From Trypanosoma brucei (Eukaryota): a stretch of DNA of 64,000 nucleotides. Of the stretch, positions 6,001 through 53,918 are shown piece after piece (positions within the stretch are counted from its first letter, which is position 1; each line of letters begins with the position of its first letter). Location of the stretch: NCBI GenBank assembly GCA_000002445.1, contig CP000068.1:352001-416000 (forward strand). The letters are read 5' to 3'. A model generated the notes under the pieces. It was given only the letters and a program-made list of their open reading frames with translations, was not told the origin of the DNA and did no database searches. The translations under genes were made by a program, and so were the position numbers.

Positions 6001-6099
6001 CGAGTGAGTGATAAACAAAAAAAGAAGAGAGAAGGGGAATCGCAGACAACAGAACAAGGCAGTAGCGAGTAGGGCGAGGAGGTGCCGCCATCTCGGACT

Positions 6100-11054: not shown

Positions 11055-13336
11055 AGGCGGAACATTGCTGCAGGTTGTGGTGTGGTGTGATGTGATGTGT
11101 ATATCAGCATATGGCACTGTTGCAAAAGAGATTGCCGCCATGATTTTGATGTCATGAAATGTCTGCCGCCTGCTTGTTTTTTTTCTTTTCTTTTTTACAA
11201 ATTTTACTTCTTCCAATTCATTCGTTGTCACTTCATGCCGCTTTCACACACCTTCGACATGTGTGATGATTCACCGATGTTGGAGCCGGCTGGAGGTCTT
11301 GTTTGTGCGGAGTGTGTCATTTGGATGAGGCAAATAAAAAGTAAAACGGTGGCGGCAGGATTAATGCGTGATTGTCATGAGTGTTGTGGAGGCGTTTGCA
11401 TGTGTTGATAAATGCATTGGACAGGGAGGAAGGCATGAAATGAGGAATAATGAAGAAAGGCAAAGGGGAGGATAGCGCTCACTCGCCACTCCTCTCGGAT
11501 CCTTCTCTTCGTCTACTGTTTTTTTTCTTTTTTCTTTTTTGCTAATTGCTTTCCCTCCCTGTTCTGCATTTCATTCATTCATCACCATCATCTTGCTTTG
11601 TTCCCTAATGTGTGTGTGCGTGTGAGTCTCCGATTCCGGTCTTTATTTTCTTCTTTCCTTGTTATTTTCTGCTTTAAAAAAAAATACAAACAAATAAACA
11701 ACTCTTCCGATGGGTGCGTTCAGTCATCTGATGTGAACTGAACCAGAAAGGAATAACGTGTATCATTTCTTCTGTTGTGTTGTTTCTACAGTTAATCTCA
11801 CTTGTTTCCTTCTTTTTCCCTCTTCTCATTATTTTTATTTTCTCGACTCAGTTAGTTCAGTTGAAGCAGAAGCAGTCCCTTTTCACTTCTGTTTTCTGTT
11901 TTCTGTTTTTTTTTTTTAATTTTATCTGGCGTTGCCATCATCATCATCTTCATCCTCCTCCTCCTTGTCGTCGTCACTGTTACTACTGTCATTATTGTTA
12001 TTATTTTTCTCTCCTTGCACCCCCAGTCCTTTTTTATTTCACGGAAGCCGGTTTCCCCTTCATTGTTATTATTATTATTATTACCGGTGTGTTATTGTCT
12101 TCAGTTACCGTTATTGTATTCTTATATTTTTATTATTGTCATTATTATTATTATTATTATCATCATCATCGTTCGTATCGGACGGGTCGGTCTGCATTCA
12201 TTTCAATATTATTTGTGCAGCGGTTGTGGTGCGCTGAAAGTGACGAACACAACAGCAACAGAAGGAAGTTCACCACCAATACAAAAAAAAGAGAAAAAAA
12301 AGAAAGAAAAAAAAGAGTGAGAGTAAGTTAGTAAGTGAGACGTGAAAAAAAAGAAAGAGGGGAAAAAAGAAAGAAAGGAATAAGAACAACAACAACAACA
12401 CGAACAAACAAGAAAAGGAGGGGAAGGTGAAAGGGCTTCAAGTGCAAGGAGAAGAAAGAAAAAAAAGGAAAAGAAAAGGGAAAAGTAAGAGCAACATCAA
12501 AGGAAGCGTGGTTAATATCAAAAGGAAAATATTTTAATTAAATAACGGGGCACATATCATTTTCAACTCACCATATTGAAAAAGAAACAGGTGGTAAGGA
12601 CGAAGGAGGAAAAAAAAACAGGAGAAATTAAAGAAAAAAAAGATAATTTAAATATATACAAACAAACACAGCTACGGAAAGGGAAAATAGGAGTGAGAAA
12701 GAGGGTGTAATTTCTTCCTTTTATATTCACGCTTCTGTACCATTTATTCAGCGGTGACGATAAGGCCTGTTCTACGTGAAGAGGGTGAAACGACAATAAT
12801 CAACACCAACAAAATAAAAGGTAGACAAACAGTGAAGAACAGAACGGGATTAAGCGGACGAGTTTCCATATTATTTCCAATATTATTGAGTGCGTGGGTG
12901 TGTACATATATTGTATTAAGAGTTGTAGCTTTTTGCTGAGACGAATAAAAGTTGCGTATATTCAACGACGACAGCAGCAACACTAACAAGTGAAGTCAAG
13001 TCAATTAGAAGGAGCCCACTATTCACACGGTTCCTGGAGAAGAAACAGGAAAAGGATATATATATATATATTCTTAAGAAGTGACGGGGGTGGGAAATAA
13101 AGGAGTTAAGAATTTGTACCAGTGACAGAGTAAAGGTGACAACACCGGTGCTTTATTAAGCAGCATATATTGGGGGAGGTAGGCGTGTGTGTGTCTGTGT
13201 TGGGGCGAAAACAAGGAAGCGGAAGTCTTTCAACACGAGTGAAAGGAAAAACAAGAAGATTAGAAATAAAAGAAAAAAGAAGAAAAAATAAAAGTAAGAA
13301 TTGAAGCAGAGGAAGAAAAGGAATCATCACACATAA

Positions 13337-13366
13337 ACACACACACACACACACACGCACACACAC
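13337..13366 (+). repeat. (AC)n microsatellite just upstream of the giant gene
   Basis: acacacacacacacacacgcacacacacaa. Confidence 0.85.
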
Positions 13367-13413
13367 AAAAGTGTATATTTATTTATATATTTAGGTCGCC
13401 ACGGTACAATTAA

Positions 13414-35939: not shown

Positions 35940-36060
35940 AACTTGTTTATACATTTTTCTGTTTAATTTTTTTTATTTTTCGCCCACTTTCATCTCCATT
36001 TGTTTTTTTTTGTTTTTCAATTTCTTCGGATGCACATTCGCACTACCACTCCAGTTCTCA
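35940..36060 (+). promoter_or_regulatory. Polypyrimidine tract upstream of the kinase gene
   Basis: ttgtttatacatttttctgtttaattttttttatttttcgcccactttcatctccatttgtttttttttgtttttcaatttcttcgg. The ORF-track start at 36000 is a TTG inside this tract. Confidence 0.4.
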
Positions 36061-36119
36061 CTAGCTTAACGTCTTGTAACTTTGGAACTGCCTCTTTAGG
36101 GGATACATCGCCGTATTGC

Positions 36120-38006
36120 ATGGCATTACGACCGTTCCCGTTGGGGAACACACCGCTGCATGCCGTCATTCGGCGTTCTGCTCGTGAATTTGAATGTGTT
36201 GAGGCAGTTCCCGCCTCGAATGCTGTTCGCTCACCTTCAACTGCATCATGGGTTTCTGCAGAGTCCCTTGATAGTATCATTTCACTGGCTAACCGCACAT
36301 CTGAAGAAATGGAGGTGGATCAACTCATTTATCGCCTCTGCCGTTCCCTTTACCATGTGGCCAAGAAAAAATCTGCACAGATCCACTGCCACCCCAACCA
36401 CCAGGAGCGGCAACAACAACAGCAGCAAGCCAGCAGCAGCGGCTGGCGTTCCGTCGAATGTGAGGGTCACTTCTCCAACATGCGCGGCCGTGAGGACTGG
36501 TGCCCGTTGTTGCACCTCTTTGATCCAAGGAGTTATTATAAGGTGATGGGGCAACCGAGTCAACACGACGGGTGCAAACTTTGTGGTGATGTGGTGGGTA
36601 CAGAGAGCAGTCCTGAAGGTGTTTCGCAGTGGCTGATGAGCGAATTGAGCGTAACGCGACTTACGGGTGGCAACAGCAACCACGTGTATCGGCTGGGCCA
36701 CGCTTCTTTTCCCAAGAAAGCTGTTCTTCTGCGCGTGTATGGTGATGGTGGTGGGGGTGACGTGATTGACCGGGCCCGGGATATTAAAGTGATGCGACTT
36801 ATGAGCAAGTCAGAGATGGGTCCAGGCTTATTGCATACTTTCCACTGGGGCCGCGTTGAGGAATTTATGGATGGTGTGTTGACGTGCACGACGGAGAAGC
36901 TCCTTACTTCTCCATCCCTACTTGCTGATGTGTATGGAGGTTTAAGTAAGATGCATCAGTTGGATTACACGCCGCTTCTGCCAGAAAACATGAGGACAAA
37001 GGGGATGTCTAACGGGCATAATTCATCTCAGAGTGTGAGCGACACGGTTTCTAAATCAGGTGGTGGACAGGAGGGACCTGACGGCACAGTGGGGGGCGTG
37101 AATGAGCTGGAAAGCACTTGTCATACCTCTTTCGAGCGTGTATGTCTCCGGTTGCTTAGGTTAGTGTCCTTGAATGTGGTGGAGGAACACCGTCACTCGC
37201 TTGAGAGCTGGTTAGCTGGTGAGGTCATGTTCGTGCGAAGGGAACTGCAATATCGTGGGATACCGGTGGTGTTGTCACACAACGATCTAAACCCTGGAAA
37301 CATTCTTCTTTCCGATGGAGCAGGAGAGGCCAGCGGTACCGTCTTCAGTGACGAGGAGCTGAGAGTGGAGAACACACCGTTGTCAAAGCGTTATGTGACC
37401 CGAAAAGGCAAAAACATGAACCTTGTGGAGCGCCGTGGTTTCCTTTTTATTGATTTTGAGTACGCGGATGCCAACTACCGCTGCTTCGACCTTGGGAACA
37501 CGCTTTGCGAGCTGGACTACGACTATACCCGTGGAACAGAAGCGGGAGGCCGGGGATTCATCAAATATCTTTTTGTATTTCCCCCGCCCGCAATGGAGGA
37601 GGCATGGCGTGGGCTCGGGGAGGAGTACCCCCGCATGCCGGAGCTCATTTATGATGCCTGGCGTCGTGGCGTGTGTGATGGATCGTCGGATATCGGCTCT
37701 GTGGCTTTGCTCGCCGTGAGACGTTACTTCGCAGAGCGGGACAATGTGCCACTTGAGACTGTGGAACTCAGTGAAGCTCAGGTTGGGGAGGTGCTGCTTG
37801 GTATGCTCGCCTCGCATCTCTATTGGACAATCTGGTCGATGACAATGGGATCTGCACCGGATAATTGCGTTGAATGCGAGGACTGCGATGATCAGATGTT
37901 TGCTGTAGGCGGAAGTGGGCTTGATTACATGCGATATGGTGAATGTCGTCTGCGGGAGTACATTGCTCTGCGTGGTTGGCTCGCAGAGAAGGGGCTTCTT
38001 TCCTGA
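36120..38006 (+). CDS. Choline/ethanolamine kinase (628 aa from first ATG)
   Basis: Brenner phosphotransferase motif HNDLNPGNILL and downstream choline-kinase motif FLFIDFEYADANYRCFDLGNTLCE. It has the N-terminal kinase-lobe layout of eukaryotic ChoK/EtnK. A long low-complexity insertion (NGHNSSQSVSDTVSKSGGGQEGPDGTVGG…) lies between the lobes. Confidence 0.8.
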   Translation: MALRPFPLGNTPLHAVIRRSAREFECVEAVPASNAVRSPSTASWVSAESLDSIISLANRTSEEMEVDQLIYRLCRSLYHVAKKKSAQIHCHPNHQERQQQQQQASSSGWRSVECEGHFSNMRGREDWCPLLHLFDPRSYYKVMGQPSQHDGCKLCGDVVGTESSPEGVSQWLMSELSVTRLTGGNSNHVYRLGHASFPKKAVLLRVYGDGGGGDVIDRARDIKVMRLMSKSEMGPGLLHTFHWGRVEEFMDGVLTCTTEKLLTSPSLLADVYGGLSKMHQLDYTPLLPENMRTKGMSNGHNSSQSVSDTVSKSGGGQEGPDGTVGGVNELESTCHTSFERVCLRLLRLVSLNVVEEHRHSLESWLAGEVMFVRRELQYRGIPVVLSHNDLNPGNILLSDGAGEASGTVFSDEELRVENTPLSKRYVTRKGKNMNLVERRGFLFIDFEYADANYRCFDLGNTLCELDYDYTRGTEAGGRGFIKYLFVFPPPAMEEAWRGLGEEYPRMPELIYDAWRRGVCDGSSDIGSVALLAVRRYFAERDNVPLETVELSEAQVGEVLLGMLASHLYWTIWSMTMGSAPDNCVECEDCDDQMFAVGGSGLDYMRYGECRLREYIALRGWLAEKGLLS

Positions 38007-38558
38007 GTTTTTTCCCTTTCCCTTTCAAAGAGGAAAAAAAAAGACATAAGGAAAGAAAGCAAAAGGAATAAAAACGAGAACGAGTGAATAAGTATGTGGG
38101 TGCCTAGGGTGAAGTGACACGGTTGCTCCCTTTTTTCCTCATCTTTACCAGTGCTGTTGCCAATAGTGTTCCAGTTTCAATGGTAATTTACGGTGATAGT
38201 TATCATTATTATTTTTACCACTATTGCTGTTATCATTATCGTCGTCAACATAATTATCGTTACTGTTGTGATGTGGTTTGTTAGGGTGGGGGGCGAGGGG
38301 GGTTAAGTCAGCCTCGGCCGTTTTCCTCCTTCCAACGCAAACCGCGACCCAATCGCGTTAAAAACGGCGATGGTTTGCTTTGCTTTGTTCGTAGTTTTCC
38401 ATTGTTCTTGTTTTCCATTACATTCTTTTTTTCCATCTTTTGCCCTCTATCGTATCACTTTAGCTTTTCCTATAGTTTGAACTACTCATGAGTGGGTGCT
38501 CACCGTCTTCCATTAACTCTTATTACCGTGTGCCGCCATTTATTTTGCAGCATCTGGG

Positions 38559-38589
38559 GTTGTTGTTGTTGTTGTTGTTGTTGTTGTTG
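38559..38589 (+). repeat. (GTT)10 trinucleotide microsatellite
   Basis: ggttgttgttgttgttgttgttgttgttgttgc in the intergenic spacer. Confidence 0.9.
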
Positions 38590-40067
38590 CTATTTGGCGC
38601 GCATGTGTGCCCGTGAGAGAAGTGACTTGAAGTAGAATGGAAAGAACCGGAGATAACAAGTGCATACGAGTCTATGAATATGAATATTGGTTAAGTGCCG
38701 TATGTCTGCTTATGCATATATACATTGTTTTTTTGTTTTTTTTTTAGACACTGGCACTTACGGCGGCTCCGTGTGTGTTTGTATGCCACAATTATCTCTG
38801 CTTCATTCCACATCGCAACACACTTCATAAAATTTCTCACCTCTCGGGAATAAAAGGAATGCAAACAAAATCGTAATGAAACAAAACGATTAAAAAGAAG
38901 AAAAAAAGGAGATTGGAAGGCGGGAGGATGAGGGAAAGTTGTAAGGGGGAGGTAAGGAGCGGATGAAGAGTGAAAGGTGCTATTGGAAAGACGCGTTACT
39001 CCCTTTTTTGTGCTTTTGCATTTGTTTTAGCGTACATATATATATATATATATATGAATATACGTGTGTGCAGTGTGTGTATTGTGTGCATGGGAAAGTA
39101 CAAAAAAAGAAAGGAATTCACTGAAAATGAGGGGAAATAAGAGGGAACATGTGCGGGGGAATGATGTAGGAAGAAGTAAAGATAATAATAACAGTAATAA
39201 ACGTCAGTAAAGAATGAAAGGTAATACGAGAAAATAAAAGGAATAGAGAGTCTGGAAGGAGGGGGAGGGGGCGGGAGCCGCTCGTGGGTGGCTTCGGCAG
39301 ATTCACACGAACCAGAGGAGAAGAAACGAGCGAGGATGCGAGGATGCGAGGAATTGACGGATTTCTCTTTCTTTCTTTCTCGACATCTCATCATCATCAT
39401 TATTCCTATTATTCCTATTATTCCTATCGTTACCATTATTATTACTATTATTATTATTGCCACGGTTACTCTACCCCCTCTTTTATTTGAACACCACAAG
39501 CGAATTATAGATTTATGTTTCTTTCTCCTCCTTCTTTCCTTTGGTTTGGACGCGGCTCACGTGCCTTTTCTGTGCTTTGTCTAAGCTCCGCCTCCTTCCT
39601 TCTCCTACTGCATGCCTCTGCCAGTGGAAGACACGTGCTTCTAATTTTATTATTATTATCATCACATTGCTGTGATTATTATTATCATTATTTCTCCCGT
39701 ACCTTTTCCGTTTTCGTGTTTTACTTCCAAGCATTCGCATTTTTCAATCTCTCTCTATATATGTTGGAGAGGCCTGACCTTCTTTTAAAAGTCCGATTTT
39801 CATATCCCTTTCTTCCTCTTTGCGATAGTTTCACAAACACCTGCTGCTTTTTCCTTTTTTTTCCTTCATTTTCATGTCTCATTCATTTCCTTCCTTTTCT
39901 GCTCTTAGTTGTCGCCTCCTTTTTTAGTACCACTTGCACATTACAGGCATATACATAATTGTATACGGTCACTTATAGTGATGGGAGAAAAGGATTCTGT
40001 GGCGTATGAGCTGCTGCTGAAGGAGTATTGGACCCGCCGTGAGCTCATTCGGCGAGAGGAGGGCCGT

Positions 40068-40497
40068 TTGCATCAACTGCAACGTATTATTCTTCAAGTG
40101 CATAACTTACTGTGGATGTGAGAGCACTGGCGATGCTGTAGTCATGTTCAGAATCTTTTTCCTCCTCTTCCTCACTCTCTTTCAGTACACTGCAGCCATA
40201 CAGCCCGAAAGACTTGCAGAGAGCATCAGTAAATAATATATGTAATATGTTTAATGTTTGTATGTGTGTATGCTTGTGAAGGGAGATGTGATATGATCGA
40301 TGGGAATGTTTGGTTTACATAACAGCAGTCGTTGAACAGAGTTGTGTACGGAATTATTGAAAGGAAAGTAAGAAGAAACAATAGTGAGTGTCATCACCAC
40401 CGCAAAGGTGCCAATTGTTTCCTCCTCCCTTTCAGTACCTTTTTGTATTTTATAACTTGGGGTGGTGTATTACTCACCATTGGAGCAGTTACGTTTA
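40068..40497 (+). repeat. Dispersed direct repeat, copy A (430 bp)
   Basis: ttgcatcaactgcaacgtattattcttcaagtgcataacttactgtggatgtgagagcactggcgatgctg … ggagcagttacgttta. It is identical to 45744-46173 except for at least 1 mismatch (gccataCagcccg vs gccataTagcccg). Confidence 0.9.
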
Positions 40498-41057
40498 TAA
40501 CAGTGCGGGGTTTCACCAGCATTCCCTGTTGAGTACGACGTCACCAGAAGGGATTGCTATCTGATGTTGACGTCACAGCAACTGGGAACTCTTCGCACCT
40601 ACTTGCGACACCGTTATTTTCGATGTGGTAATTTTTTGTTATTACTATCTTACCCTGTTGTTGTCACCCCGTTTCCGTTCTCTATAGTATCAGAGTATAT
40701 TATTCTTCTTTACTTAACGTTCGAGTTTCTGTTTGTTTGTTTGTTTGTTTGTTTGTTTTTTGCTTAAAGGAAGCAACAGTGCTGCAACAGGGGCGTGTTT
40801 TACTATTGTTTACGCCCATTTTATGACAGACTTTTGGTTTTTTTTTTCTATACTCTGTGCGTTCGCTGACCATGGGAAATATATTTCTCCTGCAAGCTGG
40901 CACTTTTGTTGGTGCTTAATCCACTTGACTGATTGCAACAAAACTGGTCCAAATACTGTTGTTTTCTCTCAGTTTTCGTTGCTTTGCTGCCTTTTTTTCC
41001 CCCTTTACGGCCTGCTTTTATTTTTATTTTTATTTTTTTGACTTCCATTGCTTTTGC

Positions 41058-43265
41058 ATGCTGAGTAAAAGGAACAGGGAGGGGTCGCGAGGAGCGATGG
41101 GGTGCGGAGAGAAAAATCCGTACACAGGCCGAGTGCTGAGTTCCCGTTATCATGCGCTTCGCGGCGTCCGTGAGAAGCTCCCAATTTTTGCCGCAAAACA
41201 AAAGATTCAACGCCTCATCAGTCGATATCAGACGCTGCTGCTGGTGGGTGAGACGGGGAGCGGGAAAACAACACAAGTACCGCAATTTGTGCTGGAGATG
41301 AACCCGGAGCATGCCATAGCGTGTACACAACCCCGGCGAGTTGCGGCAATCAGTGTGAGTGAACGTGTTGCAGAGGAGTTGGACGTAACACTTGGTGAAG
41401 AAGTTGGTTATTGCATTCGTTTTGATGACACGAGCAGTGACCGCACTCGTCTCAAGTATCTCACGGATGGTATGCTCCTTCGCGAGGCCATGGGTGATCC
41501 CATGTTACAGCGCTACAGCGTGATCATCCTTGACGAGGCTCACGAGCGGACGGTGCACACTGACATACTTATCGGAGCGGTAAAAGATCTCCTGCACCGG
41601 CGTCCGGATTTGCGCGTTGTGGTGATGTCTGCCACGCTTGAGGAACGCCGCTTTCAGTCATATTTTCCAGAGGCCCCTCTGGTCCACGTTTCCGGTCGAA
41701 TGTATGATGTTGAGGTGTACAACTCACGGCTGCCGGAAGCAAACTACCTGGAGGCTTCCATACGAACCGCTATGCAGATTCATCTCTATGAAGGGCCGGG
41801 CGACATTCTTATATTTTTAACTGGTGAAGATGAGATTGAACAGGCTGTGGAGCGGTTGCGGTTGGGAATACCCATGGCGGAACACACTAACGCAGACTGT
41901 CATAAGGGGCCTGTAGCGGTACTTCCACTGTATTCCGCGTTGCCACCAAAGGAACAACGTAAGGTGTTCCAAGCGGCGCCAGAGGGTACACGAAAGATAG
42001 TTGTCGCCACGAATGTTGCGGAAACATCGTTAACTATTGATGGTGTTGTATTTGTTATCGATAGCGGGTTCTCCAAACAGAAGGTGTACAACCCAAAGTT
42101 GCGTGTTGAGTCGTTGTTGGTGACACCTATCAGTCAGGCAAGTGCTCGACAGCGGTGTGGTCGTGCGGGGCGGACGCGCCCCGGGAAGTGTTTTCGACTT
42201 TACACCGCAAAGGCGTTTGATACGCTCCTTCAGCAGCAGACATACCCCGAAATATTACGCTGCAACTTAGGCTCAGTAATTCTTCACATGAAAATGATGG
42301 GAATTGAGGACTTGGTGAATTTCGACTTCGTGGAACCCCCAGCCCCGGAGACTCTCATGCGGGCACTGGAACTGCTGAATTATCTTGGTGCCATTAACGA
42401 CGACGGCGACATGACAAAATTCGGCCGGCGTGTTGCGGATTTCCCGCTAGAACCTGAAATGGCCGCGATGCTTTTGCACAGCCCCGAGTATGGCTGCTCA
42501 GACGATATTGCACGCATTTGCGCTATGATGTCTGTTCAAAGTCCATTCGTTACACCGCGGAATGATCAGCGCGGATGCGCCATGCGTTGCAGAGATCAGT
42601 TCTACCACCCAACTGGTGACCACCTGGCGCTGTTGAACGTCTTCAACGCCTTCTACGAGGGAAGTAATCAAAGTGGGTCGTGGGCTTCTGAGAATTATCT
42701 AAATCCGCGTGTCATGAAGCAGTCGGTGAGCATTTACCGCCAGCTAATTGGTATAATGCGCAGGTTGAATTTGAGCATTTGCAGTACATACTCTGCAGCA
42801 CAGTGGGGAGGCGCTGGGGATGGAGAATCGGACGAATACGCAAACGAGGTACGTCGAGCCGTGCTTCGTGGTTACTTCACGAAGGTGGCACTCTCACTTC
42901 CCACAAAGAACCAATTTCTCACGCTAAAGGATAACGTGAAGTGTCTCTTGTTCCCCTCTACCTTCCTTAACCGCCGCCCAAAGTTTGTTGTCTTCAACGA
43001 GCTTGTGCTTACAACAAACACATACATCCGGACTGTAACGTCGGTGTCAGATGAATGGCTACTGGAGGTGAATCCATTATATTTTGACCCAAGTGAATTT
43101 GAAGGTGTGAGCAGACAAGTGTTTGAGGAGTTGCACCGCCGGAATAACCGCAATAACGCGGCCGAGAGGGACCAAAATAAAGACTGCCTTACCGGGCACA
43201 AGCGACGACGTGGAGGAGACGCCCCAGACAACGGTGATGATGATGATGATGATGATTCGTCTTAG
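41058..43265 (+). CDS. PRP43: DEAH-box ATP-dependent RNA helicase, Prp43/DHX15-like (735 aa from first ATG)
   Basis: N-terminal NPYTGRVLSSRYHALRGVREKLPIF (Prp43/DHX15-type lead-in). Helicase motifs: motif I GETGSGKTTQ, motif II DEAH (ILDEAHERT), motif III SAT, TNVAETSLTIDG, motif VI QRCGRAGRTRPGKCFRLYT. Followed by the winged-helix/ratchet/OB C-terminal region. The ORF-track start (40959) is a TTG in a polypyrimidine tract. Confidence 0.85.
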   Translation: MLSKRNREGSRGAMGCGEKNPYTGRVLSSRYHALRGVREKLPIFAAKQKIQRLISRYQTLLLVGETGSGKTTQVPQFVLEMNPEHAIACTQPRRVAAISVSERVAEELDVTLGEEVGYCIRFDDTSSDRTRLKYLTDGMLLREAMGDPMLQRYSVIILDEAHERTVHTDILIGAVKDLLHRRPDLRVVVMSATLEERRFQSYFPEAPLVHVSGRMYDVEVYNSRLPEANYLEASIRTAMQIHLYEGPGDILIFLTGEDEIEQAVERLRLGIPMAEHTNADCHKGPVAVLPLYSALPPKEQRKVFQAAPEGTRKIVVATNVAETSLTIDGVVFVIDSGFSKQKVYNPKLRVESLLVTPISQASARQRCGRAGRTRPGKCFRLYTAKAFDTLLQQQTYPEILRCNLGSVILHMKMMGIEDLVNFDFVEPPAPETLMRALELLNYLGAINDDGDMTKFGRRVADFPLEPEMAAMLLHSPEYGCSDDIARICAMMSVQSPFVTPRNDQRGCAMRCRDQFYHPTGDHLALLNVFNAFYEGSNQSGSWASENYLNPRVMKQSVSIYRQLIGIMRRLNLSICSTYSAAQWGGAGDGESDEYANEVRRAVLRGYFTKVALSLPTKNQFLTLKDNVKCLLFPSTFLNRRPKFVVFNELVLTTNTYIRTVTSVSDEWLLEVNPLYFDPSEFEGVSRQVFEELHRRNNRNNAAERDQNKDCLTGHKRRRGGDAPDNGDDDDDDDSS

Positions 43266-43801
43266 GTGATGTCGTTGTTTGTCGGTAATGACAGCGCATC
43301 CCAACTCTGATGAGCGGTCATGCCTCTGTGTGTTGGCAGTAGCTGAGGTAATGGAGGTGCGTCTAAGAGCTATGAAACGAATAAATGTGTCGTAATAAGA
43401 TTCCTGTTCTGAAACCTTAATGGGCTGCATGTATACATAAATCTATTTATGTGTGTGTGCCTGTCAAATCTTTGTTTTCAGAATCACGGAGGTGTGTTTG
43501 GGGCAACCCCTAACTTATTGCCGATTTACCTCTGTTAAGAGAGGTGAAGCAGTTACTGGACATTTCAGTGAATCAATTCATTTCCCATCAACTCGTTGTT
43601 AACTTGTCACCGATTTTTTTCTTGCTCACACTTCAAAAAAAAAATGCTCAACTGGACGGCAACGTGTAAAATTAACAAACGGACGTCAACAATCGACAAG
43701 GAAAGAATAAGATCATCAAGGTTAGCCAACTGAGCGGACCACACAAGCCAAGGACTCAAGTAACACACCTTCTTACATTGTTTTCAAAGACACGTGAGGT
43801 C

Positions 43802-44488
43802 ATGTTCTCTATGTCGCCATGCGTGCTTACAGCCCTCCTTGCAGCAGCCGTCCTTGCGGTTTTGCCGCTTTCTAGCTTCGCTTCCCCTGAGTTGACTGAA
43901 GCCGACTTCAAGCGCATGAAGATCAAGGAACTCCGCAACTTTCTGGAGGATCGCGGCCTCACGTGCCCAGGCTGCCAAGAAAAAGCTGATTTTGTGCGCG
44001 TCGCCTTCACTAACCGTGCTAAGAAGCCTCTCAGCGAGGAGGGAAAGCGCGAGATTCCCAAGGCTCCCCTTTGGGAGGTATGGAGGGACAACGCCAAGTT
44101 AGTGTGCGAGGAGGCGGCAAAGAAGCGAGGGCTCGATGTTACGGCCAAACCCCAGTCTGACATTTGCAGCGCGGTTGCACTTGTGGTGGAGAACTTCTTC
44201 ATGCAACACGGCAAGCGCGTCGCCAACAAACTGCGCAAGAACCACGAGGCACTTCTCAAGACTTCCTACAAGAACGTGTATTATGATGCTGGTCACGTAC
44301 TCCTGAAGCGTCTAACGGAGTACTGCCTTGTGTCAGAGGAGAATCAGAACAAATGCAGCTCCATCGGTTCCCTTACTACTATGCTCGAGAGTGGTAAGAT
44401 GGTAGATTTTGCGAAATGGATGACAAATGTGGGTATTGAGAACACGAACCCAATGTACGAGGTGCTAGACGGCCGTGGCGATCTTTGA
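43802..44488 (+). CDS. Small secreted protein (228 aa) with a signal peptide and a MANF/ARMET C-terminal-like SAP + CXXC module
   Basis: The N-terminal hydrophobic signal peptide is MFSMSPCVLTALLAAAVLAVLPLSSFA. Next comes KIKELRNFLEDRGLTCPGCQEKADFVRVAF, which closely parallels the MANF C-domain ([33 protein letters not shown]). Four further Cys lie in the remainder, and the C-terminus is …GRGDL. Confidence 0.55.
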   Translation: MFSMSPCVLTALLAAAVLAVLPLSSFASPELTEADFKRMKIKELRNFLEDRGLTCPGCQEKADFVRVAFTNRAKKPLSEEGKREIPKAPLWEVWRDNAKLVCEEAAKKRGLDVTAKPQSDICSAVALVVENFFMQHGKRVANKLRKNHEALLKTSYKNVYYDAGHVLLKRLTEYCLVSEENQNKCSSIGSLTTMLESGKMVDFAKWMTNVGIENTNPMYEVLDGRGDL

Positions 44489-45743
44489 GCGAGTGAATGG
44501 ATGTGATGATGAATGTGTTCGCTTGTTTGAACCATATTCTGTCCTTGCTCGTGCCCGTGTGAGGTAAATGTGGGCGAAAGGAGGAGGAGGAGTGCATAGG
44601 AATAGTGGAAGAAAAGAAAAGTAGATTTGCCATTAAATACACATACCCCTTGGAGTGCGTTTAAGCATTACTTCCTTTCTATTCTCATTATTCCTTTTGA
44701 CTCTTCTCCCTTTACTCGTTTCCTTTCTCTTTATTGTCTATGACTGTGGGTGTGTTGCTTCATGTTAGTTAACTGGTTAATGGAGAAATGGGGAAAGAGA
44801 AAAAAATATAATGAAATTTGAAAGAAGAAGGTTAAGGCCAGTGTGGATCAGAAAAAGGAGAGAGGGAATACAACTCGAACCAAGTGTTAGTGGAGGAGGG
44901 GAGTGGGAGGAAACTGAGAAAGGGGGAGGGGGGAAGAAACGGATCTTTTTTACTTTTTAAATTCTCTTTTTCCGTCAAAGGGGAGGGAATCGAAGTGGGG
45001 GAGGGGATGTGAAACGTGTTGTACCACTAGCGTGAGCTATTGATGAAAAGGAGCTGCCCTTCCTTATCTTTTTTTCTCCTCCATGAATGACGGTACGCTT
45101 TGAGGTTCTGAACTCAGCGCAACTGGGGTGTGTGCATCAGACCCCAGTGGTTATTTTTCCATTTGAAAGGAATTTTGTAATTGAGGTGGCGGTCACTTGT
45201 TTAACGTTTTATGTTGTCGCCCTCCTGTTTTTCCTCTCTTAAACGTCCCTTTACCTCTGGTGGTGTTACACCCTCTCAAATCCGGTTCCTTGCAACTCTT
45301 CCTTATCCCAAACTTGTTTCCTTTCTTTACGCTGCTGGAATGGTTGTGTGAATCCCTTCCAGTGGCATATGGAGGGGAAAAAGCTCGGTGTGGGAAGTGA
45401 CAGCACAACGCGCACGTTGTTGCTTGTGTATTTCTTTTTGTGCAGTACCTTTAACCGACTCTCTTTTTTTACTTTTTTTACTTTTCCTTTCTTTCTCCCT
45501 TCCTTTCCCAGTTTCCAAGAGTAATACGAATTAAAGCTCCATATAGAAGACAGGAAATGTAATATTTGCCACCCGCGACAACCTGCAGCAAAGCAGTACA
45601 TTAATCGGTGAGTTTACTACAGCGTATTGTCCTAACATATTTAGTACACGTGTGGAACAGTGCAATTAATTTGTTTTCCCAAATGCTTGCCTGCTCGTGT
45701 AAGGACATTTCTCCCTCGTTGGAATAAAGCGCTGCAGCCGTGA

Positions 45744-46173
45744 TTGCATCAACTGCAACGTATTATTCTTCAAGTGCATAACTTACTGTGGATGTGAGAG
45801 CACTGGCGATGCTGTAGTCATGTTCAGAATCTTTTTCCTCCTCTTCCTCACTCTCTTTCAGTACACTGCAGCCATATAGCCCGAAAGACTTGCAGAGAGC
45901 ATCAGTAAATAATATATGTAATATGTTTAATGTTTGTATGTGTGTATGCTTGTGAAGGGAGATGTGATATGATCGATGGGAATGTTTGGTTTACATAACA
46001 GCAGTCGTTGAACAGAGTTGTGTACGGAATTATTGAAAGGAAAGTAAGAAGAAACAATAGTGAGTGTCATCACCACCGCAAAGGTGCCAATTGTTTCCTC
46101 CTCCCTTTCAGTACCTTTTTGTATTTTATAACTTGGGGTGGTGTATTACTCACCATTGGAGCAGTTACGTTTA
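45744..46173 (+). repeat. Dispersed direct repeat, copy B (430 bp)
   Basis: See copy A. Copy B is 5676 bp downstream in the same orientation. The sequence diverges immediately outside both ends (…gtttaTaacag vs …gtttaCctgaac). Confidence 0.9.
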
Positions 46174-46396
46174 CCTGAACGTAATTCGCTTTTCTCTTCC
46201 TCATTTTTGTGCTTCGTCCACCGATTTCCTTCTGATTTGGCTTTTCCCTTCGGTGTAGATGATATATATATAAATAAAACACAGTTCTCTTCTTTTGTAG
46301 ACGCTCTTTGTTGCAGTGCTGCTGTTTCTGAATTACGTTTACCGAGTTGAAACGTGGCAACTGTTAACCTTTGGTCGTGTGTCCATTTTCTTTGTA

Positions 46397-46861
46397 ATGG
46401 AAAACAAAATGTCGGCTGAGCCCCGTGTTGTGAGTAGCACAAACGTTTCACCCGACGAAGAGGAGGAGGAGGAACTTGGTCTGCCGTTGGTGCCGCTTCC
46501 TCATCAGCGTAGCCCCTTGGGGACATCATCAAAGTGTGTACAAGGCAATCATGGTGGTGATGTCGCTGCTGGTGGGAGTGATGATGATGAGGATGACCTT
46601 ATTAAATATGTTTCCAATAGTTCTTCAAAACCACTGACGTCGCGAGTAAATATGGTTTACTCCTCCGCTTCCCAGAAGCGGCCTCGCAATGACAGCGAGT
46701 TGGAGCCAGGGGCAATGGCTGCTGACATGGCAACGGAACACGCAACGCTACCAGATGACACTGATCACCCTCAGGACATGGCGGAATATGAGCGATGGAA
46801 GGACCGTGATGCCGCTAGGGCGAAAGACGAACTTATGTCCCTTTTGTCAGGGAGTGCATAG
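46397..46861 (+). CDS. Hypothetical acidic low-complexity protein (154 aa)
   Basis: ATG start MENKMSAEP…. It is Glu/Asp-rich (DEEEEELGL…GGSDDDEDDL…). It is co-directional and not overlapped by stronger ORFs. No recognisable domain. Confidence 0.35.
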   Translation: MENKMSAEPRVVSSTNVSPDEEEEEELGLPLVPLPHQRSPLGTSSKCVQGNHGGDVAAGGSDDDEDDLIKYVSNSSSKPLTSRVNMVYSSASQKRPRNDSELEPGAMAADMATEHATLPDDTDHPQDMAEYERWKDRDAARAKDELMSLLSGSA

Positions 46862-47253
46862 ACGCGAACGAAAAAAAAAGGGGGAAGTGGAGTGTTACGG
46901 AGGGGAGGCTTTTTGCCTTTGGTTAAGGTTTAGAACCTGAAGCCCTTCTACTGAGCTTGTTGATCCTTCTGTACTCGCGCACCCTTTATTGAGAGCTGCC
47001 GCAATTTCGTGTTGGTGCCTGTGCGTCTGCACACTGACTCACTACCCCTTTTGAGGTTGTTCAGTTCATTAGTCTTTTTCACTTTTGTACCGTTTGCCTT
47101 GTGGTTTCCCTCTTCAGCTCGTCAACCCCTCTTCACACAACGTGAGATGCCCTGAAGCATCTTGACAAGGATGTGATGGTTCTTTTTCTTCCCCTTCTGT
47201 TCGTTTCTTTGTAGGCGTGCGAAAGCACAGGCGTGTACACTTCGTGTGGGGTC

Positions 47254-49842
47254 ATGCAGTGGCCGTCATGGGTGCTCAGTGAGGAAAACCGCGCTCTTCA
47301 GCGCAGGGCCCAACGCGCTGCCACTGACTTGAGCGAGAAGATGGACGAAGCTGCAGCGCATCGTGAAGTTGTGGAGCTTATGCTGAGGAATATTGGACAG
47401 CTGCGGCGTGCCGTCGATTCTGCTGCGCTTGCTCTTACAGAGCAGAAAAAGTTGGAAGAAAGCGATGAGGCGGAGCTGCAACAGGTGCGGCAGGATGGTT
47501 CATACTTCCGCACTGAGCTGCAAACACTGCACCGTCGTCAAGACCAACTTCAAGAGTTATTGTTGCGGTCCGAAGCGGCACTTAAGTCAAAAACGTTGGC
47601 ACTTGAGCGGCAACAGCAGGAGTTGGCTTCAGTTCTGCATGAGCAGGAAGAATTATTGCAACAACGAGAAAATGAGGGGATCGATGGGGGGGAATTTCAA
47701 AAGCACCTGAGCGTTTTTGAAGCACAGAACCGTCAGCGCTTCGATCAACTGCAAGGAGCCTTGCAGAGGGAACAGACCACCTTCAATGCCGCTAAGGATC
47801 AACTAGACCGTGAGCGAGAGGAGTACAAGCGGGTCCAGCGTGAGCTTGCGGCCATGAGGGCAAGCATTGAGCGAGAGAAACGAGAGAAACTGAAGTCCTC
47901 CCTTACTATCCAACAGGTGCACGAACTAATGAAATCAACAGAGGCGCGGACGCTTGAGAACGCGGCGTTGTACGCCACTGGCAAGGAGTCGATGGAGTCG
48001 CAGCGAACTATGTTAATGAAGCTTCAATGTGAGGCTGAGGAGCTTGAGAGACAGCGCAAGTTGGTCGACAAACATCTGCAGGACCGTCTCCGTGAGCAGG
48101 ACAGATTAACTGCGTTGTTGAGCAGTACCACAGCTGAAGTGGAGAATCAACAGAAGGAGATGGCAAGCATGCGGCGGCAGCTATCCGCACAAAGGGATGT
48201 TAATCGAGAGCTAGCTTTGTCGCGCGATAACGCTATAATGTTGCGTGATGAGCGTTGGAATAGACAGGCGCAACTCATTCACCACGCCCAAGAGCTAAAG
48301 GTCGTGCGTGACGAAATACAAAGGCAACAAAAGGAAGGTACAAACGTTCCGGGGCCGCGCTATCTTTTACAGACCCTTGACGCTTTGAAAGCTAATGAGC
48401 GGCAGCTTGACGGCCAGATGGAGCGCCTCCGTGCGGCAAACGTTGCGTGTGTCTCGCAGCTGATGCAACACGCTAGGCAGGGCGAATCGCTAGATGGACG
48501 AATGGCAGCGGTCCGGAAGTCTCTGGCAGCTGCGGATCGTGACCACGCCCAACAGTGTCAGCTGCGTGAGCAATGCGAGCGTCAGGCGGAGGCACTAACA
48601 TCGAAGGTGGAGGAACAACAGCAGCGTCTCCAGGCGGCCCGTTTGGAAGCAGCTGCTCGCAGTGGGGCGCAATACGCCATGCTTTTGGGCAACGCGCAGG
48701 ACTTACGGGTGCGGCTGCAAGGAGAGCAACGTCGTGGCTATGAACTGCGGCGTCTCGTCGCACCCCTGCAATACACCTTGAATAGCCGCCGTCGTGCATT
48801 GTTGGAGGATGAAGAGAAGTTGGCGCATCTGGTTGGTGAGGCAGGACTGCGTGGAGCAGAGCTACAACGACTGGAGTCGGAGAAGGCGCAGTCGCAGCAG
48901 GAAAAACAGACAGCGTTACTGCTTGTGGAAGAGGCGAACTTACAGCTACAGACCCTCAATCGCTTGGCAGAATCTCGCATGGTAGCAAGTTGCGAGGCTG
49001 CCGGCATGCAGGAAATAATGCGTGGTCAAGCTTTGGCAGCCGAGGAGGCACATCAGGACGATGCAAAGAATGCGTTGCTGCTTCTGCACCTGGAGCAACG
49101 TGCTGTTTCAGATAAGCATGCGGAGCTGCGTCGTCGACAGCAGCAACTTCAAGCACTGAAAGATCGTTACCAAGACATTATGCGGTCGATGGCACGAAAC
49201 GCCGCGCTAGCAGCAAATGTAAACGTCCGTGCAGGGCAGAATTCCGATCCTTCGTCGGTTACATCGTCGTCACCATGGGAATATATGGTTGAGAAGGACG
49301 AATCTTTGTTGGCGGACACTAGCGTTGATCCAGAGGTCCTGCACGCGAAGTTCATTCTCCACGCGTCAACGACACGTGAGAAACTGTGGGAGAAGGGAAA
49401 TCAACTTGATGCTCGTGTAATGTTTCTTGAGCATGAGGTATCTGCCTTGAGGAAGATGCTTCACGCTATGCGCTCCACCGGGTCCCATCGAGAACGAACT
49501 ATAGAGGCAACGTCATCCAATTTGCCGAAGCGTTCAGAGCGGCAGAATCCAAATGACACGCAGCTTCTTACCTCCCTGCGCGAAGGTTTGACAAGGGGTC
49601 AACAAGCGGTGGAGGTTGAGCTGCAAGGTGTTAAGGAGTCACTGCAGCTTTTACAGAAGCGGATGCAAGAGGTGGGTGAAAAACATAGAAGTGAGATGAG
49701 ACGACTAAGTGAACTGCGGAGTCTGAAAGTAGGCAAAGAGGCACAGCTGCGGCGACTGAGGGATAAACTGCAACGGCAGCAAACCCAAAAAGTGCAGCAA
49801 CGTCTTAAACCTCTCTCTGCTTTGTGTGGCCGTTCAGCGTAG
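47254..49842 (+). CDS. Coiled-coil protein (862 aa from first ATG), function unknown
   Basis: Long uninterrupted ORF rich in Q/E/R/L/A heptad-like sequence throughout (…LQQVRQDGSYFRTELQTLHRRQDQLQELLLRSEAALKSKTLALERQQQELAS…). The ORF-track start is GTG 47233 and the first ATG is 47254. Confidence 0.6.
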   Translation: MQWPSWVLSEENRALQRRAQRAATDLSEKMDEAAAHREVVELMLRNIGQLRRAVDSAALALTEQKKLEESDEAELQQVRQDGSYFRTELQTLHRRQDQLQELLLRSEAALKSKTLALERQQQELASVLHEQEELLQQRENEGIDGGEFQKHLSVFEAQNRQRFDQLQGALQREQTTFNAAKDQLDREREEYKRVQRELAAMRASIEREKREKLKSSLTIQQVHELMKSTEARTLENAALYATGKESMESQRTMLMKLQCEAEELERQRKLVDKHLQDRLREQDRLTALLSSTTAEVENQQKEMASMRRQLSAQRDVNRELALSRDNAIMLRDERWNRQAQLIHHAQELKVVRDEIQRQQKEGTNVPGPRYLLQTLDALKANERQLDGQMERLRAANVACVSQLMQHARQGESLDGRMAAVRKSLAAADRDHAQQCQLREQCERQAEALTSKVEEQQQRLQAARLEAAARSGAQYAMLLGNAQDLRVRLQGEQRRGYELRRLVAPLQYTLNSRRRALLEDEEKLAHLVGEAGLRGAELQRLESEKAQSQQEKQTALLLVEEANLQLQTLNRLAESRMVASCEAAGMQEIMRGQALAAEEAHQDDAKNALLLLHLEQRAVSDKHAELRRRQQQLQALKDRYQDIMRSMARNAALAANVNVRAGQNSDPSSVTSSSPWEYMVEKDESLLADTSVDPEVLHAKFILHASTTREKLWEKGNQLDARVMFLEHEVSALRKMLHAMRSTGSHRERTIEATSSNLPKRSERQNPNDTQLLTSLREGLTRGQQAVEVELQGVKESLQLLQKRMQEVGEKHRSEMRRLSELRSLKVGKEAQLRRLRDKLQRQQTQKVQQRLKPLSALCGRSA

Positions 49843-52982: not shown

Positions 52983-53918
52983 ATGTTATTTGACTGCACT
53001 TTGCTGTCGTTGCTCGGTGCCATGGTAGCAGCTATTGGCCTCTACCGCGTGGTTCAGTTTGTACATTTAACTTTCTTCAGTACCGGCCACGACCTCAAAC
53101 GTCGCTACTCCAAAGCTGGAGATTGGGCAGTCGTAACTGGTGGGACGGAAGGTATTGGTCGGGCAGTGGCACTTGACCTCGCCAATCGTGGCTTTAATGT
53201 TTGCGTCATCTCCCGCACACAATCAAAGCTGGACGAGGTGGTAGCCGAAATTGAGAAATGCGGCACAAGGGGGCACTCCATCGCTTTCGACTTTGCAACC
53301 GCTGGTGAGGCGGAGTACAAAATGCTTTTTGCGAAGTTGGATTCGCTAGCGGTTGGGCTACTGGTTAACAACGTCGGTGTGAATTACACTTACGCCAACT
53401 ACTTTGATGAAGCGGATGTGGTGGATGACTTGCGTATCATTAAGGTCAACTGTGAGGCCACCACACGAATGACAAAGTTCTTTGCGCCGCGGATGAAGGC
53501 CCGCCGTGCCGGTGGAATTGTGCTGCTCGGTTCCTTCTCTGCAGTTACTCCAGCGCCTCTGCTCGCAACGTACGCCGGCACGAAGGCATTTAACGTTTCA
53601 TTTGGCGATGCCCTTTTCTACGAACTCAAGAAGTTTGGTGTGGATGTTTTGGTTGTGACACCAAATCTTGTTGTCAGCAGAATGACGCAAGGCGCAAGCA
53701 CCCGGGCACCGAAGGAAACGTTCCTTACCGTAGGCGCGGCTGCCATGGCGCGTCAAACGTTGAATCAACTCGGTGTTGTGAACCGCACCGCCGGCCACCG
53801 AAACCACATTATCATCGAAGCCATCGCCCGTCTCTTGCCCGAGTCTTTGCGTGGTGAAAAGATGTTGGCAATGCACGAAAGCATTAAGAAGCGAGCAGAG
53901 CGCAAGGCGAAACAGTAA
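52983..53918 (+). CDS. Short-chain dehydrogenase/reductase of the very-long-chain 3-oxoacyl-CoA reductase (KAR/HSD17B12) type, 311 aa
   Basis: N-terminal hydrophobic membrane anchor. Rossmann motif AVVTGGTEGIGRAVA, NNVG, catalytic YAGTKAF and a basic C-terminal tail (KKRAERKAKQ). This architecture is typical of the ER elongase-pathway ketoacyl reductase. The ORF-track TTG start at 52962 was re-set to ATG 52983. Confidence 0.7.
   Translation: MLFDCTLLSLLGAMVAAIGLYRVVQFVHLTFFSTGHDLKRRYSKAGDWAVVTGGTEGIGRAVALDLANRGFNVCVISRTQSKLDEVVAEIEKCGTRGHSIAFDFATAGEAEYKMLFAKLDSLAVGLLVNNVGVNYTYANYFDEADVVDDLRIIKVNCEATTRMTKFFAPRMKARRAGGIVLLGSFSAVTPAPLLATYAGTKAFNVSFGDALFYELKKFGVDVLVVTPNLVVSRMTQGASTRAPKETFLTVGAAAMARQTLNQLGVVNRTAGHRNHIIIEAIARLLPESLRGEKMLAMHESIKKRAERKAKQ

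What the first reader, a model, noticed from the sequence alone, without database searches (positions are those of the whole stretch)
40068..46173. 430-bp about 99.8% identical direct repeats (40068-40497 and 45744-46173) bracketing the DEAH helicase and MANF-like genes
Two copies lie in the same orientation 5676 bp apart, with sharp boundaries; the sequence is unrelated immediately outside both ends. Only one mismatch was seen (C/T at gccataYagcccg). The repeat lies in otherwise unique intergenic spacer. Copy A overlaps the 3' end of a small ORF (39909-40121) and copy B does not, so the repeat is not a duplicated gene. Possible explanations:
(i) footprint of a segmental duplication or insertion event that placed the 5.2 kb PRP43–MANF-like block here;
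(ii) a dispersed intergenic element family;
(iii) shared UTR regulatory modules kept identical by gene conversion.
Direct repeats of this identity are substrates for deletion or duplication of the intervening genes.
Basis: seen in the sequence. Interest (0 to 1): 0.55.

Follow-up and report, generated by a model that had tools for sequence, protein, structure and literature searches.

The report
Relic of ancient duplication flanking helicase
The two 430-bp repeats are real and are what is left, in Trypanosoma brucei, of an ancient duplicated block (choline kinase gene plus a 46-codon micro-gene) that brackets the same helicase and MANF genes in other trypanosomes; this is ordinary genome evolution, though a clear example of it.

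Summary
Window 40068-40497 and 45744-46173 are 430-bp direct repeats with one mismatch and sharp ends. Both copies are present in an independent T. b. equiperdum assembly.

Copy A holds the last 17 codons plus stop of a 46-aa micro-gene (s46, 39981-40121), followed by 376 nt of its 3'UTR. This gene is conserved (dN/dS 0.05-0.23) and is listed in the literature as Tb5.NT.34_1. Copy B is a 5'-truncated, dead copy of the same piece.

Synteny explains the origin. In T. vivax a 2821-bp unit [choline/ethanolamine kinase - s46 - 460 nt] occurs twice at 99.93% identity, on either side of helicase-MANF. T. cruzi, T. theileri and T. grayi carry the kinase duplicated in the same arrangement. T. congolense also has two near-identical kinases, but their order is unresolved. 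Paralogues are 99.2-99.9% identical within a species, against 62-86% between species, which is concerted evolution.

T. brucei deleted the second kinase, the 5' part of the second s46 and the neighbouring adh_short gene. The helicase-MANF block was not inserted here.

Still open: whether the near-identity in T. brucei reflects ongoing gene conversion or a recent deletion, and the genome-wide copy number. Interest is modest.

The parts
40068..40497 (+). Repeat copy A: codons 30-46 plus stop of s46 (40068-40121) and 376 nt of its 3'UTR. This is the surviving 3' end of duplicated unit 1.
   Evidence: It lies wholly inside transcript Tb5.NT.34.
45744..46173 (+). Repeat copy B: the truncated remnant of duplicated unit 2. 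It holds a dead s46 3' fragment (45744-45797, preceded by an in-frame TGA and with no start codon) plus the same 376 nt.
   Evidence: It occupies the position of the second kinase-s46 unit of T. vivax and of the only s46 of T. theileri, T. cruzi, T. conorhini and T. rangeli.
39981..40121 (+). s46, a 46-aa micro-protein gene (MGEKDSVAYELLLKEYWTRRELIRREEGRLHQLQRIILQVHNLLWM), identical to Tb5.NT.34_1.
   Evidence: Orthologues of 46-50 aa occur in six other Trypanosoma species. dN/dS is 0.05-0.23. HMMER finds homologues in T. congolense, Phytomonas and Logan contigs. It is listed by Ericson et al. 2014.
39909..40938 (+). Transcript Tb5.NT.34, reported as 1030 nt. Its 5' end follows the AG at 39907-39908.
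   Evidence: Coordinates are inferred from the ORF offsets [73-210], [236-325], [656-856] and [915-1031] in PMC3942054 Additional files 1 and 3. They were matched to the window by tblastn.
36030..38006 (+). Choline/ethanolamine kinase (Tb927.5.1140, TbC/EK2), the only kinase copy left in T. brucei. It belongs to unit 1.
   Evidence: Pfam PF01633, synteny, gene ID from PMC2552378.
41058..43265 (+). DEAH-box helicase (PRP43/DHX15-like), the first of the two bracketed genes.
   Evidence: Pfam DEAD, Helicase_C, HA2 and OB_NTP_bind. 83% identical to the T. theileri and T. cruzi orthologues.
43802..44488 (+). MANF/ARMET-like ER protein (Tb927.5.1160, TbMANF), the second bracketed gene.
   Evidence: Pfam ARMET_C, orthologues, gene ID and function from a bioRxiv 2026 preprint.
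44489..45743 (+). Spacer where the second kinase copy and the 5' part of s46 are missing in T. brucei.
   Evidence: tblastn with outgroup kinase finds no relic. There is no DNA similarity to the region around kinase 1.
46174..46396 (+). Short spacer where adh_short, present in all other species examined, is missing.
46397..46861 (+). 154-aa gene, orthologue of the 125-147-aa gene that follows adh_short in the other species.
   Evidence: tblastn with the T. theileri 129-aa protein, E 1e-13.
47233..49842 (+). CCDC39-like gene, the downstream synteny anchor.

Best explanation
The 430-bp direct repeat is the vestige of an old interspersed duplication of a unit [choline/ethanolamine kinase - s46 micro-gene - about 0.4 kb of downstream sequence]. 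One copy of this unit lies upstream of the helicase and one downstream of MANF.

In other trypanosomes the two units are still largely intact and are kept about 99% identical by gene conversion. In the T. brucei lineage, after its split from T. congolense, unit 2 lost the kinase, the kinase-s46 spacer and the first 87 nt of s46 through a deletion. That deletion breakpoint is the repeat's sharp left edge. The neighbouring adh_short gene was also lost.

What remains of unit 2 is the last 54 nt of s46 plus 376 nt of its 3' flank (copy B). Copy A is the same stretch in the intact unit 1, where it forms the end of the coding sequence and the proximal 3'UTR of the expressed s46 mRNA (Tb5.NT.34).

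Shown: the repeat, its gene content, the synteny, the intact double unit in T. vivax, and concerted evolution of the kinase paralogues.

Inferred: that the T. brucei copies descend from that ancestral pair; that their 99.8% identity is due to gene conversion continuing until recently (or to a recent deletion); and that crossover between the repeats is selected against because it would delete the helicase.
For: 1. Copy A begins exactly at codon 30 of s46. Copy B carries the same 17 codons plus stop, behind an in-frame TGA.

2. s46 is a real gene. Orthologues are 46 aa in five of the other species and 50 aa in T. rangeli, and all end at the same point (W plus one residue, then stop). tblastn gives E 1e-16 to 1e-20 and dN/dS is 0.05-0.23. 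DNA conservation with the non-salivarian species ends at the stop codon; with T. vivax it runs about 14 nt further. s46 is ORF 73-210 of the 1030-nt transcript Tb5.NT.34.

3. T. vivax L010 has kinase-s46 at 4179-6999 and again at 11368-14188. The units are 2821 bp, 99.93% identical, and flank helicase-MANF. A second T. vivax assembly has a contig that runs exactly from one unit edge to the other.

4. T. theileri, T. cruzi (two assemblies) and T. grayi have the kinase duplicated on both sides of helicase-MANF, at 98-99.1% identity. T. congolense has two kinase proteins that are 621/626 identical.

5. Kinase paralogues are 99.2-99.9% identical within a species and 62-86% between species.

6. In T. 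theileri, T. cruzi, T. conorhini and T. rangeli the only s46 lies between MANF (or kinase 2) and adh_short. That is the place where T. brucei copy B sits.

7. Copies A and B of the window and of T. b. equiperdum differ only by private changes. There is no fixed A-versus-B difference.
Against: The non-coding 376 nt cannot be aligned between species. Homology of the T. brucei repeat to the T. vivax unit therefore rests on the s46 fragment and on position.

No relic of kinase 2 or adh_short remains in T. brucei, so the deletions are inferred, not seen.

With only about 1-2 differences per 430 bp, the four-copy comparison cannot separate ongoing gene conversion from a deletion that happened shortly before the T. 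brucei subspecies diverged.

The T. congolense gene order is known only from accession numbering: kinase CCC90403, s46 ORF CCC90405, kinase CCC90407, MANF CCC90410. This does not obviously match kinase-s46-helicase-MANF-kinase and may reflect draft scaffolding.

Genome-wide copy number of the 430-mer was not testable.
Confidence: 0.85

Rival explanations
1. Copy B is a new, recent, T. brucei-specific ectopic copy. For example, it could be templated repair of a break downstream of MANF using copy A, made after unit 2 had been lost completely. On this view it is unrelated by descent to the second unit of other species.
For: Identity is very high (429/430), and paralogue divergence is no greater than between-strain divergence. 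The ends are sharp with no decayed homology around them. A possible 5-nt GCCGT microhomology lies at the left junction.
Against: It requires a coincidence: the new copy would have landed in the same intergenic interval, in the same orientation, and containing the same gene (s46 3' end) as the ancestral second unit seen in T. vivax and the s46 of four other species. About 99% identity between old paralogues is the rule at this locus, so high identity does not imply youth.
Confidence: 0.08
2. The 430-mer is a member of a dispersed intergenic repeat or mobile-element family (RIME/ingi/SIDER-like) that happens to have two copies here.
For: It lies in intergenic or UTR sequence and contains two polypyrimidine tracts each ending in TTTCAGTAC. 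The whole genome could not be searched.
Against: There are only two copies in 64 kb. There are no target-site duplications, no A-rich tail and no Rfam or tRNA match. Its first 54 nt are the in-frame 3' end of a gene under purifying selection. A homologous larger unit in T. vivax accounts for both positions.
Confidence: 0.03
3. The helicase-MANF block was inserted or transposed between pre-existing sequences, and the repeats are the insertion footprint.
For: Direct repeats bracket exactly these two genes.
Against: Helicase-MANF adjacency and their neighbours are conserved across seven Trypanosoma species, and helicase-MANF-adh_short-CCDC39 is conserved in Leishmania.
Confidence: 0.01
4. One copy is an assembly duplication.
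For: None beyond the near-identity.
Against: Both copies are present, with their distinct flanks, in the independent T. b. equiperdum IVM-t1 chromosome. The OVI short-read contig ends inside both copies. Each copy carries private variants.
Confidence: 0.01

Closest known systems
Concerted evolution of duplicated genes in trypanosomatids (tandem gene arrays of T. brucei, Jackson 2007, PMC1855330; tubulin arrays, PMC1621084)
   Same: Paralogues, including their flanking untranslated sequence, are kept nearly identical within a species by gene conversion while orthologues diverge. Boundaries between homogenised and unique sequence are sharp.
   Different: Here the two units are not head-to-tail. 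They are separated by 4.4-5.2 kb holding two unrelated single-copy genes. In T. brucei only a 430-bp non-functional stump of one unit survives.
Truncated (5'-deleted) duplicate pseudogene fragment
   Same: Copy B carries the 3' end of a coding sequence and its 3'UTR. It has no start codon and has a stop immediately upstream.
   Different: It shows no decay (99.8% identical to the live gene). This points to recent truncation or continuing conversion from copy A.
Direct-repeat-mediated amplification or deletion substrates in Leishmania
   Same: Direct repeats of a few hundred bp bracket a small gene block, the geometry that supports circular amplicon formation or deletion by homologous recombination.
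   Different: No copy-number variation of the helicase-MANF segment was observed or testable here. This is a resemblance in geometry only.
Trypanosomatid short retroposons (RIME, SIDER)
   Same: Size of a few hundred bp and location in UTR or intergenic sequence.
   Different: No target-site duplication, no A-tail, no multi-copy distribution in the window, and the repeat starts inside a conserved CDS. It is not a member.

Membership tests
Remnant of an interspersed segmental duplication under concerted evolution | Two copies in direct orientation with high identity and defined boundaries | tested here: met
   429/430 identical with sharp ends.
Remnant of an interspersed segmental duplication under concerted evolution | Related species carry a larger duplicated unit at the orthologous two positions | tested here: met
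   T. vivax has 2821-bp units holding kinase, s46 and flank on either side of helicase-MANF. T. theileri, T. cruzi and T. grayi have kinase units in the same arrangement.
Remnant of an interspersed segmental duplication under concerted evolution | Paralogues more alike within a species than orthologues between species | tested here: met
   Kinase CDS is 99.2-99.9% identical within species and 62-86% between. The s46 fragment is 54/54 identical between copies A and B, against about 71% for T. brucei versus T. vivax.
Remnant of an interspersed segmental duplication under concerted evolution | Direct evidence of gene-conversion events between the T. brucei copies (shared polymorphisms, conversion tracts) | tested here: inconclusive
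   Four copies from two genomes show only private differences, too few sites to decide.
Truncated duplicate pseudogene | Contains part of a CDS that is demonstrably a real gene elsewhere | tested here: met
   s46 is conserved, with dN/dS 0.05-0.23. Copy B holds codons 30-46 plus stop.
Truncated duplicate pseudogene | Cannot encode the protein (no start codon, interrupted frame) | tested here: met
   In-frame TGA directly upstream and no ATG.
Dispersed repeat or retroposon family (RIME/ingi/SIDER) | Target-site duplications and an A-rich 3' tail | tested here: not met
   Flanks read directly. Neither feature is present.
Dispersed repeat or retroposon family (RIME/ingi/SIDER) | Many copies across the genome | not testable with these tools
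   Only the 64-kb window and 20-kb loci could be searched, and these hold two copies. Look-ups of ORFs inside the repeat found nothing.
Structured non-coding RNA gene (snoRNA, tRNA and others) | Match to a known RNA family | tested here: not met
   Rfam gathering and E-value scans and ARAGORN gave no relevant hit.
Shared UTR regulatory module | Both copies lie in UTRs of mature mRNAs | tested here: inconclusive
   Copy A lies in the 3'UTR of Tb5.NT.34. No transcript information was found for copy B.
Assembly artefact | Second copy absent from independent assemblies | tested here: not met
   Both copies are present in IVM-t1. The OVI contig breaks in both copies.

The most novel reading that the evidence does not exclude
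The direct-repeat bracket around helicase-MANF may be maintained by selection rather than inertia. Across Trypanosoma, repeats of 0.4-2.8 kb at about 99% identity always flank these two genes. This could serve as a built-in substrate for reversible amplification or excision of the PRP43-MANF segment, for example to tune ER-stress tolerance. Alternatively, copy B may be retained in T. brucei because the duplicated s46 3'UTR supplies RNA-processing or regulatory signals to MANF or to the downstream 154-aa gene.
Probability: 0.07. Interest if true: 0.65.

Novelty: new member of a known kind. Interest (0 to 1): 0.3.

Why it matters
The result turns an unexplained repeat into a dated evolutionary story. 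An interspersed duplication older than the split of T. vivax, and of the Salivaria, from other trypanosomes has been homogenised for that whole time. It is now caught in T. brucei at the stump stage.

It shows that the functional s46 micro-gene of T. brucei sits in the unit-1 position, while the position that is the only one occupied in non-salivarian species holds a dead fragment. This is gene relocation by duplication and differential loss.

It gives independent comparative support (strong purifying selection, conservation as far as Phytomonas) for a 46-aa protein that was not called as a gene in any of the outgroup assemblies examined. It is annotated only in T. b. equiperdum IVM-t1, and in T. 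congolense only as an over-extended 144-aa "unlikely" ORF.

Practically, reads and knock-out or tagging constructs that target the s46 3'UTR or the MANF downstream region will cross-map between the two copies. The repeats are also a potential substrate for deletion or amplification of the helicase-MANF segment.

Tried and rejected
- **RNA gene scans.** Rfam scans of the whole window (gathering threshold) and of the repeat region (E up to 10), plus ARAGORN, found no RNA gene. The only hit, bacterial RalA at E 0.08 outside the repeat, is chance.
- **Older homology in the flanks.** Flank-to-flank blastn with shuffled controls found none.
- **Relics of the lost genes.** tblastn for kinase 2 or adh_short between MANF and the 154-aa gene found none.
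- **Cross-species alignment of the 376-nt non-coding part.** Against T. theileri, T. cruzi, T. grayi, T. conorhini, T. rangeli, T. vivax and Leishmania, only the s46 CDS aligns.
- **Genome-wide copy count.** Exact look-up of ORFs lying inside the repeat (51-aa and 66-aa ORFs) found nothing on record.
- **s46 in Leishmania.** An HMM search for s46 in the L. mexicana locus found nothing.
- **A "novel transcript" covering the MANF-to-copy-B spacer.** None is listed in the Ericson et al. supplements.
- **A C/D snoRNA reading.** A GTGATGA box lies on the minus strand near 40389-40395. I rejected this by eye because no D box lies at a suitable distance, and Rfam gave no hit.


Full report
**1. The observation**

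The repeat finder and a MAFFT alignment with 100-nt flanks confirm two direct copies, 40068-40497 and 45744-46173. They are identical at 429 of 430 positions. The single difference is C in copy A and T in copy B, within gccataYagcccg. Identity collapses at both ends. At most five further bases (GCCGT) align on the left if a 2-nt indel is allowed. Sensitive blastn between the left flanks, between the right flanks, and crosswise gives nothing above shuffled controls. A word-7 blastn finds no third copy in the 64-kb window.

The window is Trypanosoma brucei-group chromosome 5. It is 98.6% identical over 20 kb to T. b. equiperdum IVM-t1 CM010676.1 (locus L002), which has both copies in the same places. 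A 5314-bp short-read contig of T. equiperdum OVI (L001) corresponds to window 40466-45784, so it starts and ends inside the two copies. That is the signature of a genuine repeat.

**2. What is inside the repeat**

The gene order in the window is as follows:

| Window coordinates | Gene |
|---|---|
| 36030-38006 | Choline/ethanolamine kinase (Tb927.5.1140, TbC/EK2) |
| 39981-40121 | 46-codon ORF (s46) |
| 41058-43265 | DEAH helicase (PRP43-like) |
| 43802-44488 | MANF/ARMET-like protein (Tb927.5.1160, TbMANF) |
| 46397-46861 | 154-aa gene |
| 47233-49842 | CCDC39-like gene |

Copy A starts exactly at codon 30 of the 46-codon ORF. It runs through the stop codon and 376 nt beyond. Copy B contains the same 17 codons plus stop, but directly behind an in-frame TGA and with no start codon. 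The repeat is therefore a partial gene duplicate.

**3. The small ORF is a real gene (here called s46)**

- tblastn finds unannotated orthologues ending at the same point (W plus one residue, then stop). They are 46 aa in T. theileri, T. cruzi (two assemblies), T. conorhini and T. vivax, and 50 aa in T. rangeli. Identity is 62-71% and E values are 1e-16 to 1e-20.
- Nei-Gojobori dN/dS is 0.05-0.23 in all pairs.
- Nucleotide conservation with the non-salivarian species ends at the stop codon. With T. vivax it runs about 14 nt further.
- An exhaustive HMMER search adds a T. congolense record (CCC90405.1, an over-extended 144-aa ORF labelled "unlikely"), Phytomonas sp. Hart1 and three Logan ORFs. 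All share the motif YW-x-RE-x(3)-R-x-EG-[RK]-L-x(2)-LQ-x(6)-HN-x(2)-W.
- The ORF is already in the literature as a candidate. Ericson et al. 2014 (PMC3942054, Additional files 1 and 3) list it as Tb5.NT.34_1 [73-210] of the 1030-nt RNA-seq-defined transcript Tb5.NT.34. They record it as conserved in T. congolense and T. vivax, with no mass-spectrometry peptide.
- Matching the four listed ORFs of that transcript to the window places it at 39909-40938, starting right after an AG. Copy A therefore lies entirely inside a mature mRNA. It covers the end of the CDS and the first 376 nt of an approximately 817-nt 3'UTR.

**4. Synteny explains the repeat**

Gene order in the other species, around helicase-MANF:

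| Species (locus) | Arrangement and duplicated unit |
|---|---|
| T. vivax (L010, long-read) | 302-aa gene - kinase - s46 - helicase - MANF - kinase - s46 - adh_short - 147-aa gene - CCDC39. Duplicated unit 4179-6999 and 11368-14188: 2821 bp, 99.93% identical, containing the kinase, s46 and 460 nt beyond the s46 stop. |
| T. vivax (L011, second assembly) | A 4379-bp contig that runs exactly from the end of unit 1 to the start of unit 2. |
| T. theileri | Kinase on both sides of helicase-MANF, 2254 bp at 99.1%. |
| T. cruzi (two assemblies) | Kinase on both sides, 2356 and 2368 bp at 98.5% and 99.0%. |
| T. grayi | Kinase upstream of the helicase, and the contig ends inside a second kinase unit downstream of MANF, 203 bp at 98%. 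|
| T. congolense | Two kinase proteins, 621/626 identical; gene order unresolved (see Uncertainties). |
| T. conorhini and T. rangeli | Only the upstream kinase. |
| Leishmania mexicana | Helicase-MANF-adh_short-CCDC39, with no kinase at the locus. |

In T. theileri, T. cruzi, T. conorhini and T. rangeli, the single s46 lies between MANF (or kinase 2) and adh_short. That is where T. brucei copy B sits.

Kinase coding sequences are 99.2-99.9% identical between paralogues of one species, but only 62-86% identical between species. This is the classical pattern of concerted evolution by gene conversion.

**5. Best explanation**

The salivarian ancestor carried [kinase-s46-flank] on both sides of helicase-MANF. 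The kinase duplication itself predates the split from the other trypanosomes.

In the T. brucei lineage, after divergence from T. congolense, unit 2 lost the kinase, the spacer and the first 87 nt of s46. adh_short was also lost. Neither has left a detectable relic. The 430-bp repeat is the part of unit 2 that survived.

Its left edge is the deletion junction. Its right edge is either the original unit boundary (376 nt past the s46 stop, against 460 nt in T. vivax) or the adh_short deletion junction.

The live s46 of T. brucei is thus the unit-1 copy. The copy at the position that non-salivarian species use is dead.

The helicase-MANF block was not inserted. Its adjacency and its neighbours are conserved throughout.

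**6. Why 99.8% identical?**

Comparing copies A and B in the window and in IVM-t1, every difference is private to one copy. There is no fixed A-versus-B difference. Paralogue divergence is 1-2 substitutions per 430 bp. This is no greater than between-strain divergence, which is 0.8% mismatches over the 20-kb locus.

Either conversion between the stumps continued until about the time the T. brucei subspecies diverged, or the truncation itself is that recent. The data cannot separate these two possibilities.

By inference from general knowledge (Prp43 is essential in yeast; not tested here), a crossover between the repeats would delete the helicase. This would explain why only non-crossover homogenisation is seen across the genus.

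**7. Rivals**

- **A fresh ectopic copy unrelated by descent to unit 2.** This requires a coincidence of position, orientation and content. Estimated probability about 0.08.
- **A dispersed or mobile element.** No target-site duplication, no A-tail and no extra copy were found. The repeat also starts inside a constrained CDS. The whole genome could not be searched. Estimated probability about 0.03.
- **No RNA family or tRNA matches**.

**8. Uncertainties**

- The non-coding 376 nt is not alignable between species, so homology rests on the s46 fragment and on position.
- The T. congolense order is known only from accession numbering: kinase CCC90403, s46 CCC90405, kinase CCC90407, MANF CCC90410. 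This may reflect draft scaffolding.
- The transcript status of copy B is unknown. No "novel transcript" covers the MANF-to-copy-B spacer in Ericson et al..
- Whether the two polypyrimidine tracts ending in TTTCAGTAC inside the repeat act as trans-splice signals at copy B is untested.

**9. Verdict**

This is a real feature with a well-supported and ordinary explanation. It is a truncated remnant of an ancient, concertedly evolving interspersed duplication. It is a new example of a known kind and of modest interest (0.3). Two useful by-products follow. One is comparative validation of a 46-aa micro-gene that no outgroup assembly examined calls as a gene. The other is a clean case of gene relocation by duplication and differential loss.

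Noticed in passing
window 13414-31602 (+), repeats 14923-28683: A single 6062-aa ORF contains at least 11 tandem copies of a 1251-bp (417-aa) unit at 97-98% identity. The orthologous products in T. b. equiperdum and T. vivax hit Pfam FAZ1_cons. Tandem Repeats Finder missed the array because the period exceeds 500.
   Followed up: partly
L003 14571-14711; L005 17325-17465; L004 17364-17504; L008 11469-11609; L009 11488-11640; L010 6399-6539 and 13588-13728: The s46 micro-gene is present but was not called as a gene in the T. theileri, T. cruzi, T. conorhini, T. rangeli and T. vivax assemblies. In T. congolense it is buried in a 144-aa ORF labelled "hypothetical protein, unlikely".
   Followed up: yes
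window 44489-46396: T. brucei lacks the adh_short (short-chain dehydrogenase) gene found between MANF/kinase 2/s46 and the 129-aa-type gene in every other species examined, including two tandem copies in Leishmania mexicana. Only a distant SDR-like match lies at window 53055-53630.
   Followed up: partly
L005 14123-16774: One T. cruzi assembly carries a reverse-transcriptase/RNase H ORF (a retroelement) inserted between kinase 2 and s46.
   Followed up: no
L009 11850-12242 and 12324-12715: T. rangeli has a 394-bp direct duplication (96% identity) between s46 and adh_short. This is another small repeat in the same intergenic interval.
   Followed up: no
window 38007-39980: The kinase-to-s46 spacer is about 2 kb in T. 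brucei, against 183 nt in T. vivax and 637 nt in T. theileri. It is full of low-complexity runs: (TTG)n at about 38562-38590, (AT)n at about 39036-39056, and ATT/CTT-rich tracts.
   Followed up: no
window 40144-40236 versus 45820-45878: The single C/T difference between the copies turns codon CAG into TAG in the non-conserved ORF Tb5.NT.34_2 (30 aa in copy A, 19 aa in copy B). This is probably meaningless but is the only A/B difference.
   Followed up: partly
P0071 and P0012 (Logan contigs): A 46-aa s46 homologue and a MANF homologue from an unidentified kinetoplastid both report a longest contig of 31,596 bp. This suggests that s46-MANF linkage extends beyond Trypanosoma. It could not be fetched because the look-ups were exhausted.
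   Followed up: no
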